Shown: positions 45,553-49,426 of the stretch, piece after piece
Layout: the number at the start of each line of letters is the position of its first letter
How positions within the stretch are numbered: the stretch's first letter is position 1
Assembly (NCBI GenBank): GCA_905214315.1
Contig: CAJMLN010000007.1
Location: 392-64,391, forward strand
From: an uncultured bacterium
GTDB taxonomy: Bacteria; Bacillota; Clostridia; Christensenellales; QALW01
DNA length: 64,000 bases
Direction: 5' to 3'
Made by a program: the position numbers and the translations under genes
The notes under the pieces: generated by a model
Databases searched by the model: none
Seen by the model: the letters and a program-made list of their open reading frames with translations, nothing else
What the model was told of the DNA's origin: nothing

Positions 45553-46437
45553 TTATCTTTTCTGATATTCAAGCATAGAAAAGAACTGTTCGGCCCAGTT
45601 GATGTCGTCTTTGTTTGGCGTCCATTCATCGCACATTGGACTGGGACGGCTTAAAAGCGTATATTTTGCGCTGCCCAGGCCGTGGTAGGGTAGAAAGCGC
45701 ACGCTTTTGCAGTGCTTTAAGGAGGAGAACAGCTCAAACAGTGCGGTAAGGTGTTCCCTGTTTATATTTACGCCTTTTACTAAAATACAGCTGAGAATGG
45801 TGGGAATCCCCGCTTCATCCGCTGTTAGCAGATTGCGGATGATTTTTTTGTTGGAAACGCCGGTGTAGGCAATGTGTCTTTTTTCATCGGTATCCTTGAT
45901 ATCCCACAAAAACAGGTCCGTACATTCCCGCAGGGCGGGAATATATTCGGCGGCAAAGTAGCCGGAGGTATCCACGCAGGTGGAAAGTCCCGCGCGTTTG
46001 GCTGCGTTTAACAGTTCCAGGGTTCCTTCGGCCTGGAACAAAGGTTCTCCTCCGGAGACGGTCAGTCCGCCCGTCCGGCCGTAAAAGGGACGGTCCGACA
46101 GAACGCGGTTTAAAATTTGTTCGCAGGTATATACGGCGGAATCCTGCTTCAGCGCGCCGGCGGGGCAGCTTTCCGCGCAGAGTCCGCAGCGGATGCAGCG
46201 GGAACGGTCAAAGGTGTGTCCGTCGGTAAAGCTATGCGCTTTTTGGGCGCATATGCCGCAGGCGCCGCAGCCGATGCAGCGGGCGGGCGCATAAAACAGC
46301 TCCGCTGTCGCTTTTTGGGTTTCGGGGTTATGGCACCAGCGGCACCGCAGGGGACAGCCCTTTAGAAATACCGTGGTGCGCAGACCGGGGCCGTCGTTCA
46401 TGCAGAAATGCTGAATCTGCGTTATGGCAAGCTTCAT
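45553..46437 (-). CDS. Glycyl-radical enzyme activating protein (radical SAM, with auxiliary ferredoxin-like clusters)
   Basis: CPLRCRWCHNPE radical-SAM motif, plus CIGCGACGICA and CIRCGLCAESCP. 4-nt overlap with the upstream GRE gene. Confidence 0.9.
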   Translation of the reverse strand: MKLAITQIQHFCMNDGPGLRTTVFLKGCPLRCRWCHNPETQKATAELFYAPARCIGCGACGICAQKAHSFTDGHTFDRSRCIRCGLCAESCPAGALKQDSAVYTCEQILNRVLSDRPFYGRTGGLTVSGGEPLFQAEGTLELLNAAKRAGLSTCVDTSGYFAAEYIPALRECTDLFLWDIKDTDEKRHIAYTGVSNKKIIRNLLTADEAGIPTILSCILVKGVNINREHLTALFELFSSLKHCKSVRFLPYHGLGSAKYTLLSRPSPMCDEWTPNKDDINWAEQFFSMLEYQKR

Positions 46438-48527
46438 ATGCTGCCCTCAGCGGTGCGCTCCATAATCATGTGCTGCCATTGGCTGTTCAGGGTTACAAAG
46501 CGGGCGTTCCAGCCGGAAACGCGCACGGACAGCGTCTGGTAGTCCTCCGGGTGCTCCTGCGCCGCCTTTAGAATATCGGCGTCCTGTACATCCGGCTGTA
46601 AAAAGAAGCCGCCAAGGGCAAGAAAGCCCTCCAGCAAACCGCAGACGGCCGCGATGCCCTCTTCTCCCCTGAAGCAGGCGGGCATCAGCTTTAAATCCAG
46701 CGCGCAGCCGCCGGAGATTTCCGTAAGATCCGGTTTGCAGAAGGAACGGATGACCGCCGTAGCGCCGTTGCCGTCGGTGCCGGGGGTGGGGGAAAAGTTG
46801 CCCGAAAGCAGAGCTCCTTTTTTCTTTCCGAACGGGGCGGCTTCACGTTGGGGCGCCCATTCGATCTGCCGGCCGAAGGTGCTGATGCCGGGCGGGGTCT
46901 GCAGGCCGGCAGGATTTTTCAGGTTTTTGCAGATGACGGCAAAATCATGCAGCAGCCGGCAGGCTAAAGCGTCGGCCTCGTCACTTCCGTTGCCGAAATA
47001 GCTGTAGCGGTTGAGCATATGCAGACGCAGCGGCTCGTTTCCCTCCCAGTTCTGCGCCAGAATACGGCACAGCTCCGGCAGGGTGATCCGCTTTTCTTCG
47101 TACACGGCTTTTTTTAAGGCGTACAGGCTGTTTATGATGTCAGTTGCGCCGCCGAGATGGGGCGAAAGCACGTTGTATTTCGGCCCGAAATCCGCATAGG
47201 CCCGGCCGCTTTCAATACAGCCCCGCTCAAAGAGGGCGGCAACGGAGTCCGCGCTGTGGCGGCAGACTTTTCCGCCGTAGGAGGAAACAAGCTTTTCCAC
47301 CGCGGTTTTTAGATCCCTGATGTACGCATCGTACAATGCTTCAAAGGTAGGAAAGTTTGGCACGCGGCTGTAGCCGCCCAGCGTGTTTTGCTGCAGGATA
47401 AAAAGTCCGTCAAAGGGAATGTAGGTAAAGCAGGTATCGCCGGGAATCTGCACCTCCCAGCAGCCGTCGTTGGCAAAGCGGCGCGCGGTCTTTAACGGAT
47501 AGCCTGAGGCGGTCAGCGCCCGGAGCACCGTCTCCTCGTTATAAAAGGCCAGAATGCCGCCGCCGTGGCGCAGAACCTCGGCACAGCGCTCCAGCAGTTG
47601 CCGCGGTGTGCGGGCGTTCAGCCGTACGGCAATGGGAAAGTCGCCGATGCCCAGCTCTTCGATAATATCCAGAACCAAATAGGTAACCTCGTTGGTGATG
47701 TCGTTTCCCTCTTCGTCCACACCGGAGAGCACAATGTTCTGGTAATGCTGTGCGTCGCCGGAGCCGCAGTCACCGCCGCAGATCCATTCGCAGCCCTTGA
47801 TGAAAAAGTGCGCTAAAATCTCCCGCGCCTGCTCAAGGGTGAGGGCGCCCCGGGCTAAATCTTCTTTTAGGTAGGGTCCTAAAATTTGGTCAATGCGCCC
47901 AATGCCGGACCAGTTGCCGCACAGGCGCGTAAAGGCGAATAAAAACCACAGGCTCTGCACCGCCTGGTGAAAGTTCTTCGGCGGTGCAAAGGGTACCTCC
48001 CTCAGTGCCGCCAGGCTTTTTTCACCGGGTTCCTGTTCCAGCTGCTGTATATAACGCTTGTGCCACAGCCGCATCGCACCGATTGTCCGGAGCATACTCT
48101 CAAACACGCGCGTATCGCCTGCGGTCTGGGACATGTTGTGTCGGATACGGGCCTCAACGGCGTTTATGCCCTCGGCTACGGCAAAATCAAACCCCAGCGT
48201 TACGTGGCTGACGCTGTAGCAGATGTTTTGATTTTCATAGCGTGCGGGAACAAAGTGGGAAATAGCGTCGCCTAAGGTGGCCGCGCCGCTGAGCAGTTCT
48301 CCCGGAACGATGCGCAGGGGAGCCTTGGCGGCGATCTCAGAAATGGCAGCGTCGTATTGCTCCAGTGCGCTATATGTTTTGAAGGCCGGGATATGATCCA
48401 AAAAAACACAGGGGGTTTTTTTAGTGTCCAGGCCGTAGACGTGATTCAGGGAATCGTAGGCAAAGCGGCGGGTGGCCTCCGAAAGGCGTACCGGCCGCGG
48501 CTGGGAATAGAGGGTGGGAAAGAGCAT
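46434..48527 (-). CDS. Glycyl-radical enzyme of unknown specificity (PFL-family fold, unusually short at 697 aa)
   Basis: C-terminal glycyl-radical motif LSVRVSGWNARF (Gly about residue 672). Thiyl loop RRFANDGCWEVQ (Cys about residue 356). AAGGAG RBS. In-frame TGA and TAA 24-30 nt upstream fix the N-terminus. Confidence 0.85.
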   Translation of the reverse strand: MLFPTLYSQPRPVRLSEATRRFAYDSLNHVYGLDTKKTPCVFLDHIPAFKTYSALEQYDAAISEIAAKAPLRIVPGELLSGAATLGDAISHFVPARYENQNICYSVSHVTLGFDFAVAEGINAVEARIRHNMSQTAGDTRVFESMLRTIGAMRLWHKRYIQQLEQEPGEKSLAALREVPFAPPKNFHQAVQSLWFLFAFTRLCGNWSGIGRIDQILGPYLKEDLARGALTLEQAREILAHFFIKGCEWICGGDCGSGDAQHYQNIVLSGVDEEGNDITNEVTYLVLDIIEELGIGDFPIAVRLNARTPRQLLERCAEVLRHGGGILAFYNEETVLRALTASGYPLKTARRFANDGCWEVQIPGDTCFTYIPFDGLFILQQNTLGGYSRVPNFPTFEALYDAYIRDLKTAVEKLVSSYGGKVCRHSADSVAALFERGCIESGRAYADFGPKYNVLSPHLGGATDIINSLYALKKAVYEEKRITLPELCRILAQNWEGNEPLRLHMLNRYSYFGNGSDEADALACRLLHDFAVICKNLKNPAGLQTPPGISTFGRQIEWAPQREAAPFGKKKGALLSGNFSPTPGTDGNGATAVIRSFCKPDLTEISGGCALDLKLMPACFRGEEGIAAVCGLLEGFLALGGFFLQPDVQDADILKAAQEHPEDYQTLSVRVSGWNARFVTLNSQWQHMIMERTAEGSI

Positions 48528-48625
48528 TCTTGAAACTCCTTTTTTGTTTTATCATACCGCATTTTTTATGGAAGCGCCATTGACAAAAGTATTATCCGTT
48601 TGTACAATACTATTAAGGTGAGAAT

Positions 48626-49426
48626 ATGACGCTTGAAAAAATTGTAATAACCGACTGGATGCGCGGGCAATTGTGTTCCGGAGAAATCGAAGGGGAAAAG
48701 GTAATAAAATCCCTTCCCTGCCTCTCGGTGGTGCAGGCGCAGGAGGGAAGCTATACCGTGGGGATCGGACATGGAGAAAACTATCATACCGGTCAGGGCG
48801 GTATTTTTATTGCGCCTTCGGGGGCGGTTCAGAATATCGTGCATCATGTAAATCCCGTCACCGGCTGCATGCGGGCGCGGTGGGTCTTCCTTTATACCGC
48901 TGTGGAGGAAATCTATCCGCTGGATGCGTTTTTTTCCTTTCCCACGCTGATACCGCCGGCCTTTTTGCAGGAGGCCGATGCGTGCCTTGACGAGATATTT
49001 TCCGCGGCGTCCTATTGCCGGGGGATGATGGCCTGCTATCGCCTTACCGAGCTGCTTTTAAAGCTTGCCTCTAAAAAGCCGATGGCATCCAATCCGATTG
49101 CCCCCTTGCTGGATTATTTGCGCAGACATTGCGGCGAGCAAATCAGTGTGGCGGATATGGCCGAACGGATGCACATGTCGCAATCCAACCTTTATCCACT
49201 GTTTAAAAAGCATACCGGATTTACCCCGATAGGATATGTAAACGATTACCGCCTTACCGCGGCCTCGGCGCTTTTGCTCAGCAGCGATAAAACGCTGGAG
49301 GAAATCGCGGAGGAAACGGGGTTTTCCGATATCTCCTATTTCAGCCGTCTTTTCCTGAAAAAATATAAAATGCCGCCCGGCAGATACCGGCGGCAGATGA
49401 GAAAGGACGCGGACGGAAAAGGGTGA
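48626..49426 (+). CDS. AraC-family transcriptional regulator
   Basis: C-terminal dual HTH (ISVADMAERMHMSQSNLYPLFKKHTG; LEEIAEETGFSDISYFSRLFLKKYKMPPGRYR). Divergent from the GRE gene. Confidence 0.85.
   Translation: MTLEKIVITDWMRGQLCSGEIEGEKVIKSLPCLSVVQAQEGSYTVGIGHGENYHTGQGGIFIAPSGAVQNIVHHVNPVTGCMRARWVFLYTAVEEIYPLDAFFSFPTLIPPAFLQEADACLDEIFSAASYCRGMMACYRLTELLLKLASKKPMASNPIAPLLDYLRRHCGEQISVADMAERMHMSQSNLYPLFKKHTGFTPIGYVNDYRLTAASALLLSSDKTLEEIAEETGFSDISYFSRLFLKKYKMPPGRYRRQMRKDADGKG

What the first reader, a model, noticed from the sequence alone, without database searches (positions are those of the whole stretch)
45553..49426. Unusually short glycyl-radical enzyme (697 aa) with a GCWE thiyl loop, its own activase and a divergent AraC regulator
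Seen in sequence:
- The GRE ORF carries the glycyl-radical fingerprint RVSGWNARF (Gly about residue 672).
- It carries a Cys loop NDGCWEV (Cys about residue 356).
- The Cys-to-Gly spacing of about 316 residues matches full-size GREs. The missing 80-150 residues, relative to the 760-900 aa typical of PFL, CutC, diol dehydratase, HypD or IslA, are therefore N-terminal.
- The N-terminus is not a mis-call. There is an AAGGAG RBS, and in-frame TGA and TAA lie just upstream.
- The activase overlaps by 4 nt and has the CxxxCxxC motif plus two ferredoxin-like cluster motifs.

Established knowledge: GRE 1,2-eliminases carry G-C-V-E, where the Glu acts as a base. PFL has C-C.

Inference: G-C-W-E keeps the Glu, so the chemistry may be of the eliminase or lyase type. 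The Trp substitution and truncated N-terminus point to a distinct subfamily that is probably uncharacterised. The AraC neighbour suggests induction by a small-molecule substrate.
Basis: partly seen in the sequence, partly recalled or inferred. Interest (0 to 1): 0.65.

Follow-up and report, generated by a model that had tools for sequence, protein, structure and literature searches.

The report
Uncharacterised compact glycyl radical enzyme operon
This stretch of an uncultured gut Clostridia genome carries an intact oxygen-sensitive radical enzyme, its activating enzyme and a sugar-sensor-like switch; all belong to a large, never-studied branch of a well-known enzyme superfamily, and the substrate is still unknown.

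Summary
Every sequence observation is confirmed. The window holds a 697-aa glycyl radical enzyme (GRE) with Cys loop NDGCWEV (C356) and Gly loop RVSGWNARF (G672). It has an AAGGAG ribosome-binding site with in-frame TGA and TAA just upstream. The activase overlaps by 4 nt, and an AraC gene is transcribed divergently.

The protein is not a one-off. It belongs to a tight clade found in at least 593 species-representative genomes; the best 80 loci are all uncultured gut or digester Clostridia. Sequence identity across the clade is about 55%, yet every mapped pocket residue is invariant.

No curated equivalog model, solved structure or June 2026 GRE review covers the clade. In trees it sits on a long branch inside the eliminase/isomerase (PFL2-type) radiation, outside the PflD, GD/PD and HypD clades.

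The shortness comes from internal deletions, chiefly about 58 aa before barrel strand β1. It is not an N-terminal truncation.

The catalytic Cys-x-Glu and the β1 His are kept. The second acid/base of the dehydratases is lost, and three invariant Trp plus Arg553 line the predicted pocket.

Only the activase (52/69 loci) and the AraC gene (42/70) are conserved neighbours, so context gives no substrate. Eliminase- or isomerase-type chemistry on a hydroxylated, probably carbohydrate-derived molecule is the best guess, and it is unproven.

The parts
46434..48527 (-). Compact CXE-type glycyl radical enzyme, 697 aa. Key residues: H108 (strand β1), W206, H261/Y262, C356-W357-E358 (Cys loop), F551, R553, G672-W673 (Gly loop).
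   Evidence: AF2 model pLDDT 91, pTM 0.92. Foldseek TMq 0.84-0.86 to GD, PD, HypD and CutC. Invariance across 48 homologues.
45553..46437 (-). Dedicated radical-SAM activating enzyme, 294 aa. It has a CX3CX2C motif plus two ferredoxin-like Cys motifs and is translationally coupled to the GRE (4-nt overlap).
   Evidence: TIGR02494 282.5 bits vs cut-off 174. It is the next gene downstream in 52/69 related loci.
48626..49426 (+). Divergently transcribed AraC-family regulator, 266 aa. It has an N-terminal β-rich cupin-like sensor domain (residues 1-150) and a C-terminal double HTH.
   Evidence: Orthologous in 42/70 loci. The N-domain has no Pfam or PDB sequence match. AF2 pLDDT 92; Foldseek matches ToxT/Rns over the full length and AraC 2arc / BgaR 6nwo over the N-domain.
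48536..48541 (-). Ribosome-binding site AAGGAG, 8 nt upstream of the GRE ATG.
48551..48556 (-). Candidate -10 box (TATGAT) of the GRE promoter. No good -35 hexamer lies 17 nt upstream, as expected for an activator-dependent promoter.
   Evidence: TATAAT is conserved at this position in 39 aligned intergenic regions.
48580..48608 (+). Near-consensus sigma-70 promoter of the AraC gene: TTGACA-17 nt-TACAAT. Its -35 hexamer is the conserved 'TTGTCAAT' box, and it lies back-to-back with the GRE promoter.
   Evidence: 11 of 12 matches. Conservation across species.

Best explanation
This is a functional three-gene module: a GRE, its activase and an AraC sensor. The GRE belongs to a large uncharacterised clade of compact enzymes with an NDGCWE Cys loop and an RVSGW Gly loop.

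Proposed working:
1. The AraC protein binds an inducer in its cupin-like N-domain and activates the weak-(-35) GRE promoter. That promoter lies back-to-back with the regulator's own strong promoter.
2. The activase reductively cleaves SAM. The resulting 5'-deoxyadenosyl radical abstracts H from G672.
3. The glycyl radical generates a thiyl radical on C356.
4. [quoted passage not shown]
5. E358, tuned by H108, deprotonates or orients that hydroxyl. The resulting ketyl-type radical expels a group on the neighbouring carbon. This is either C-X elimination or ring-opening isomerisation.
6. The product radical takes H back from C356.

The substrate is unknown. The Trp-rich, polar pocket, the AraC/BgaR-like sensor and the glycan-degrading hosts point loosely to a carbohydrate-derived molecule, possibly anionic because of R553.

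Shown here: intact genes, fold, motifs, clade separation, conservation and context. Inferred: radical formation, reaction type and substrate class.
For: - Domains and activase.
- Confident AF2 model with the full GRE fold, closest to GD, PD, HypD, CutC, HplG, PflD and YbiW.
- HMM scores are higher for eliminase/isomerase models (PFL2-3 276, HypD 240, PflD 231, HpsG 227 bits) than for decarboxylases (IAD 173, HPAD 150) or PFL (57).
- C356, W357, E358, H108, Y262, F551, R553 and G672 are invariant in 48 homologues that are only about 55% identical overall.
- The H108/E358 pair corresponds to the HypD His160/Glu436 pair, which is essential by mutagenesis (PMC7077986; mapping).
- The clade is monophyletic and lies outside characterised clades.
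- The trio is conserved: activase in 52/69 loci, AraC in 42/70.
- AraC sensor fold. Promoter pair.
- Each of the four PFL-like GREs in this genome has its own adjacent activase.
Against: - No biochemical data exist for any member.
- The second acid/base that dehydratases use to protonate the leaving OH is missing. The residue at GD Asp447 is T/S/I/M368, and the residue at HypD Asp278 / GD His281 is Pro/Ser207.
- TIGR01774 scores far below its cut-off.
- No transporter, kinase, aldolase, dehydrogenase or microcompartment gene is conserved nearby, so neither a carbohydrate substrate nor a pathway is supported by context.
- Residue mapping rests on sequence alignment. In the β2 region HMMER and MAFFT disagree by 1-2 positions.
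- Model coordinates could not be inspected.
Confidence: 0.6

Rival explanations
1. The enzyme is a second small-diol or glycerol dehydratase. It would act like the canonical PD/GD enzymes on a diffusible substrate that needs no transporter.
For: The closest sequence and fold matches are PD (5i2a/5i2g) and GD (1r8w). H108, Y262, C356 and E358 match GD H164, Y339, C433 and E435. The lack of a conserved transporter fits a membrane-permeant substrate.
Against: The GD/PD residues Asp447 and His281/Ser282 are not conserved. The pocket carries bulky W206, W357, W673 and F551 plus R553. The same genome already encodes a canonical 842-aa PD-like GRE with its own activase. Identity to PD/GD is only 22-30%.
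Confidence: 0.12
2. The enzyme is a terminal decarboxylase of a carboxylic acid, in the style of the arylacetate decarboxylases. The product would be excreted, which would explain why no downstream genes are linked.
For: The module stands alone without pathway genes, as in decarboxylase loci that make end products (review). The predicted pocket is aromatic-rich, and invariant R553 could bind a carboxylate.
Against: HMM and Foldseek similarity to IAD and HPAD is weaker than to the eliminases (173/150 vs 240-276 bits; E 1e-32 vs 1e-43). The clade branches among eliminase/isomerase lineages, although no decarboxylase sequence was included in the trees. No small subunit gene is present.
Confidence: 0.12
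3. The gene is a decaying or mis-called fragment of a full-length GRE and has no function.
For: It is about 90-145 aa shorter than the characterised enzymes.
Against: Length and N-terminus are shared by hundreds of homologues. There are in-frame stops upstream and a good RBS. The AF2 model is confident and has a complete barrel. The catalytic residues are invariant. The gene is translationally coupled to the activase.
Confidence: 0.02

Closest known systems
B12-independent glycerol dehydratase (C. butyricum, PDB 1r8w/1r9d) and GRE 1,2-propanediol dehydratase (R. inulinivorans, PDB 5i2a/5i2g)
   Same: Same ten-stranded barrel fold (TMq 0.84-0.86). Shared features are the Cys loop G-C-x-E, the β1 His, the β3 Tyr, the Gly loop RVxG, and an adjacent activase with two auxiliary ferredoxin-like motifs.
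   Different: Identity is only 22-30%. The protein is 90-145 aa shorter through internal deletions. Trp replaces Val in CXE, and Trp replaces Tyr after the radical Gly. The GD Asp447 and His281/Ser282 equivalents are lost. R553 and F551 sit on β8. There is no microcompartment context.
trans-4-hydroxy-L-proline dehydratase HypD (PDB 6vxc/6vxe)
   Same: The His160/Glu436 pair is kept as H108/E358. The HypD Trp277 and Ser334 equivalents are present as W206 and S256.
   Different: The catalytic Asp278 position holds Pro/Ser, Asp339 holds His261, Tyr450 holds Pro371 and Thr645 holds Phe551. NF043068 scores 240 bits against a cut-off of 1100.
GRE sugar-phosphate isomerases YbiW and PflD (PDB 8id7, 8id0, 8yjo)
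   Same: CXE-type enzymes acting on carbohydrate-derived substrates. Fold similarity is comparable (TMq 0.83-0.85).
   Different: NF007437 scores 231 bits against a cut-off of 1109. No linked kinase, aldolase or PTS genes are present. Phosphate-binding residues could not be compared because the primary paper is not in the library.
Other compact GREs in the same genome: C31 (690 aa, ACWE/RIWGW) and C4 (738 aa, GCNW/RVTGF)
   Same: They are short, each has an adjacent activase, and C31 shares the CWE and G-W features. They group with the finding in the first tree, although these are long branches.
   Different: They are very divergent (end branches 2.5-3.8 substitutions per site) and belong to different families. 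No AraC partner was detected next to C31.

Membership tests
Glycyl radical enzyme superfamily (PFL-like) | PFL-like ten-stranded barrel domain plus a C-terminal glycyl radical domain with RVxG | tested here: met
   PF02901 at 265 bits and PF01228 at 68 bits. The AF2 model matches GRE structures at TMq up to 0.86.
Glycyl radical enzyme superfamily (PFL-like) | Catalytic Cys at the tip of the Cys loop | tested here: met
   C356 aligns with GD C433, PD C438 and HypD C434 and is invariant in 48 of 48 sequences.
Glycyl radical enzyme superfamily (PFL-like) | Cognate radical-SAM activating enzyme | tested here: met
   TIGR02494 at 282.5 bits vs cut-off 174. The gene overlaps the GRE by 4 nt and is adjacent in 52/69 loci.
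Glycyl radical enzyme superfamily (PFL-like) | Formation of a stable glycyl radical (EPR) | not testable with these tools
   This needs anaerobic co-expression and EPR.
GRE 1,2-eliminases / isomerases (PFL2-type, TIGR01774) | [quoted passage not shown] | tested here: met
   C356-W357-E358 is invariant. The motif definition comes from the review.
GRE 1,2-eliminases / isomerases (PFL2-type, TIGR01774) | Score above the curated subfamily cut-off | tested here: not met
   276 bits against a cut-off of 678. Canonical members score 700-990 bits.
GRE 1,2-eliminases / isomerases (PFL2-type, TIGR01774) | Substrate-contacting residue at the common β1 site (GD H164, HypD H160, CutC D216, IslA Q193) | tested here: met
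   H108 aligns there and is invariant.
GRE dehydratases (GD, PD, HypD) | Second acid/base that protonates the leaving hydroxyl (GD Asp447/His281; HypD Asp278) | tested here: not met
   Position 368 is T/S/I/M and position 207 is Pro/Ser. The β2 alignment is uncertain by 1-2 residues.
Characterised equivalogs (HypD NF043068, CutC TIGR04394, HpsG NF048011, HpfG NF048009, PflD NF007437, IAD NF033718, HPAD NF033715, PFL TIGR01255) | Score above the equivalog cut-off | tested here: not met
   All score 57-240 bits against cut-offs of 994-1150.
AraC/XylS transcription regulators | C-terminal double HTH (HTH_18/HTH_AraC) with an N-terminal ligand-binding or dimerisation domain | tested here: met
   PF12833 at 84.6 bits and PF00165 at 56.9 bits. 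The N-domain resembles the AraC 2arc and BgaR sensor domains by predicted fold only.

The most novel reading that the evidence does not exclude
The NDGCWE clade catalyses a GRE reaction not yet described: radical C-O (or C-X) cleavage of an unphosphorylated glycan-derived molecule. The substrate would be held by a triad of invariant Trp residues (W206, W357, W673) and by Arg553, with no second general acid. The clade's wider lineage includes members with twin-arginine leaders and an inserted ConA-like lectin domain. That would extend glycyl radical chemistry to glycan breakdown, possibly outside the cytoplasm.
Probability: 0.2. Interest if true: 0.8.

Novelty: new variant of a known kind. Interest (0 to 1): 0.45.

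Why it matters
GREs carry out key anaerobic gut reactions, including production of TMA, H2S, p-cresol and skatole, and hydroxyproline use. The 2026 review stresses that whole clades lack any assigned function.

This clade is widespread: at least 593 species-level genomes, mainly herbivore and human gut Clostridia. It is compact, its pocket is invariant, and it comes with a dedicated sensor. That makes it a tractable target, because the AraC partner could serve as a reporter to fish for the inducer or substrate.

A new substrate or reaction type would add a missing step to models of gut anaerobic metabolism. The internal deletions also show how far the GRE scaffold can be trimmed, including part of the pre-barrel helical region that forms the dimer interface in canonical GREs.

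Tried and rejected
1. Conserved neighbours. ORFs from 81 loci were clustered by all-vs-all BLAST. Nothing beyond the activase and AraC is found in more than 9 loci. The most frequent extra is a generic ABC ATPase. The Gfo/Idh/MocA, MFS, FAD-oxidoreductase, GH116 and aldose-epimerase neighbours are lineage-specific.

2. Regulon search. A second exact copy of the 13-mer CTTTTGTCAATGG lies at C4:70280 (about 0.06 expected by chance). It sits inside a MazF/PemK-like coding sequence (…[11 protein letters not shown]…), so it is a chance match.

3. Operator reading. I first took the conserved TTGTCAAT box for an AraC operator half-site. The promoter scan shows it is the -35 hexamer (TTGACA) of the regulator's own promoter. 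A true operator is not defined.

4. R553 as the counterpart of the IslA sulfonate-binding Arg678. This is rejected. Arg678 lies 4 residues upstream of Phe682, and Phe682 corresponds to F551. Arg678 therefore maps to invariant G547, and R553 lies 2 residues downstream.

5. RNA and DNA read evidence.

6. Pocket inspection. Model coordinates are not exposed.

7. The YbiW/PflD primary paper is not in the library.

8. The first tree joined the clade to two other long-branch GREs, with a long-branch-attraction warning. I rebuilt the tree without them.
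Full report
**Observation**

The three ORFs are as described: GRE 46434-48527(-) of 697 aa, activase 45553-46437(-) of 294 aa, and AraC 48626-49426(+) of 266 aa. The GRE carries NDGCWEV (C356) and RVSGWNARF (G672). The minus-strand sequence upstream of the start reads …gta TGA TAA aac aaa aaa gga gtt tca aga ATG. This confirms the AAGGAG ribosome-binding site (48541-48536) and the two in-frame stops.

The activase overlaps the GRE by 4 nt. It has C28-x3-C32-x2-C35 plus two ferredoxin-like Cys motifs, and it passes the curated GRE-activase model (TIGR02494, 282.5 vs 174 bits). Pfam finds PFL-like plus Gly_radical in the GRE and HTH_18/HTH_AraC in the regulator.

**What family it belongs to**

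No NCBIfam equivalog is approached. The scores are PFL2-3 276 (cut-off 678), HypD 240 (1100), PflD 231 (1109), HpsG 227, CutC 200, IAD 173, HPAD 150 and PFL 57. The best solved relatives by sequence are PD dehydratase 5i2a (220 bits) and GD 1r8w (210 bits).

A word-indexed search of 5.8 billion proteins returned more than 120 clusters at 54-58% identity. All are 694-725 aa long and all are named 'hypothetical' or 'PFL family'. A profile search of 1.84 billion 50%-identity representatives shows a tight family of about 20 clusters (over 680 bits). Scores then drop sharply to below 455 bits for other full-length GREs.

The best 80 are all uncultured Clostridia MAGs from ruminant, human and bird guts or from digesters.

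The June 2026 GRE review enumerates all characterised classes. All are full-length, none has a CWE loop, and the review states that entire clades remain unvalidated. No paper in the library pairs 'GCWE' with 'glycyl radical'.

**Phylogeny**

Comparators came from related genomes and were labelled with NCBIfam. They include a PflD equivalog, a HypD equivalog, GD-like and PD-like sequences, two CutC-related clusters and five unlabelled clusters. PFL served as outgroup.

The compact family is monophyletic (SH-aLRT 99-100). Together with other NDGCWE proteins of 736-964 aa it forms a separate lineage (support 100; stems 0.58 and 1.31). That lineage lies within the PFL2-type radiation and is not nested in any labelled clade. 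The first tree carried a long-branch warning, and the rebuilt tree without the two offending sequences agrees.

Eight of the ten canonical clusters also reach no equivalog cut-off. Uncharacterised GRE clades are therefore the rule, not the exception.

**Structure and where the missing residues are**

AlphaFold2 with the 48-sequence alignment gives pLDDT 91 and pTM 0.92. Foldseek aligns the model to GD, PD, HypD, CutC, HplG, PflD, YbiW, IseG/IslA and HpsG at TMq 0.80-0.86 and 20-24% identity. Decarboxylases and X-succinate synthases match more weakly.

An L-INS-i alignment with canonical enzymes shows that the N-terminus itself is present. The deficit is internal:
- about 58 aa after PLRIVPGELLSG (canonical residues about 79-132);
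- further gaps of about 12, 10 and 5 aa before the Cys loop;
- a net deficit of about 15 aa between Cys and Gly, which includes a gap of about 12 aa just after the Cys loop.

Relative to HypD, about 52 of roughly 92 missing residues lie before β1, 26 lie between β1 and Cys, and 15 lie between Cys and Gly. The lost segment belongs to the pre-barrel helical region that forms the dimer interface in canonical GREs (review). The oligomeric state may therefore differ; this is an inference.

**Active-site map**

The equivalences come from the HypD and IslA structure papers, the alignment and conservation in 48 sequences.

| Residue in this protein | Equivalent in characterised GREs | Conservation in family |
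|---|---|---|
| H108 | GD H164 / HypD H160 / CutC D216 / IslA Q193 | invariant |
| W206 | HypD W277 | invariant |
| position 207 (Pro/Ser) | HypD Asp278 / GD His281 | variable |
| S256 | HypD Ser334 (Phe in GD, PD, CutC) | 43 of 48 |
| H261 | HypD Asp339 | invariant |
| Y262 | GD Tyr339 / HypD Phe340 | invariant |
| C356-W357-E358 | CXE motif | invariant |
| position 368 (T/S/I/M) | GD Asp447 | variable |
| P371 | HypD Tyr450 / CutC Tyr506 | invariant |
| F551 | HypD Thr645 / IslA Phe682 / PD Val696 | invariant |
| R553 | two residues further along β8 | invariant |
| G672-W673 | Gly loop; Tyr or Phe follows the Gly in canonical enzymes | invariant |

The Cys/Glu/His catalytic core of the eliminases is therefore retained. 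The second acid/base is missing, and the pocket composition matches no characterised enzyme. Invariance of these positions at about 55% overall identity argues for one conserved substrate.

**Context and regulation**

All-vs-all clustering of ORFs from 81 loci shows the activase as the next gene downstream in 52/69 loci with enough flank. A divergent orthologous AraC gene lies upstream in 42/70. Nothing else occurs in more than 9 loci. The window's other neighbours (TetR-like, MBL/Ada, aldose epimerase, GH116, MFS, FAD oxidoreductase) are shared only with the 88%-identical sister species.

The AraC N-domain (residues 1-150) has no Pfam or PDB sequence match, even with a 34-sequence profile. 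Its model (pLDDT 92) is a β-rich cupin-like domain. It resembles ToxT/Rns over the full length, and the arabinose-binding AraC domain and the lactose sensor BgaR over the N-domain.

The 98-bp intergenic region is conserved across species. It holds a near-consensus promoter for the AraC gene, TTGACA-17-TACAAT at 48580-48608 on the + strand, with 11 of 12 matches. Back-to-back with it lies a GRE promoter with a good -10 (TATGAT, 48556-48551) and a poor -35, as expected for activator dependence. A true operator was not defined, and a regulon search found only a chance match.

**Genome background**

The genome is 2.1 Mb and 98% complete. It encodes NrdD, a canonical 842-aa PD-like GRE, this enzyme, and two more non-canonical GREs: C31 (690 aa, ACWE/RIWGW) and C4 (738 aa, GCNW/RVTGF). 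Each PFL-like GRE has its own adjacent activase. There is no PFL.

**Verdict**

Eliminase- or isomerase-type chemistry is the best-supported mechanism (about 0.6), and the substrate is unknown. A small-diol dehydratase role and a terminal decarboxylase role remain possible at about 0.12 each.

This is a new variant of a known kind. It is of moderate interest because uncharacterised GRE clades are common, and the same clade has been flagged repeatedly in this scan. It remains a well-defined, abundant and tractable target.

Noticed in passing
Genome contig C31:15273-17343 (+), outside the window; activase at C31:17336-18124: A second compact GRE of 690 aa in the same genome. It has an ACWE Cys loop and an RIWGWSAYF Gly loop, its own adjacent activase, and belongs to a different, very divergent family.
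   Followed up: partly
Genome contig C4:42512-44726 (-), outside the window; activase at C4:44785-45480: A 738-aa GRE whose Cys loop is GCNW, with no Glu two residues after the Cys, and whose Gly loop is RVTGFTAYF. It has an adjacent activase and lies on a very long branch. Its reaction type is unclear.
   Followed up: no
Proteins P0128 (741 aa) and P0132 (964 aa) from the representative library: Close relatives of the NDGCWE clade start with twin-arginine-like leaders (MIINRRNFLKSVS…, MNRREFVKAVSG…). P0132 also has a Laminin_G_3 (ConA-like lectin) domain inserted at residues 215-350 (75 bits). P0126 (875 aa) has a 217-aa N-terminal extension with no Pfam hit. The window protein has no leader.
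   Followed up: partly
Genome contig C59:1559-4085 (+), outside the window: A canonical 842-aa PD-dehydratase-like GRE (GCVEPQ, GWHD, RVAGYSA) with an adjacent activase. The organism therefore already has a standard diol dehydratase. No pyruvate formate-lyase was found in the genome.
   Followed up: partly
Window 46001-48000 compared with 44001-46000: GC content jumps from 0.39 to 0.59 across the activase/GRE boundary region. The window as a whole ranges from 0.37 to 0.59, so no case for horizontal transfer was made.
   Followed up: no
Genome contig C4, about 70160-70413: A MazF/PemK-like toxin coding sequence (…[34 protein letters not shown]…). It happens to contain an exact copy of the 13-mer found in the GRE control region.
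   Followed up: yes
Window 53135-55720 (-), 51035-51910 (+), 49854-50924 (-): A GH116-family glycosidase (861 aa), an aldose 1-epimerase and an MBL-fold protein fused to an Ada Zn-binding domain lie within 7 kb of the module. They are not conserved with it beyond the sister species.
   Followed up: partly
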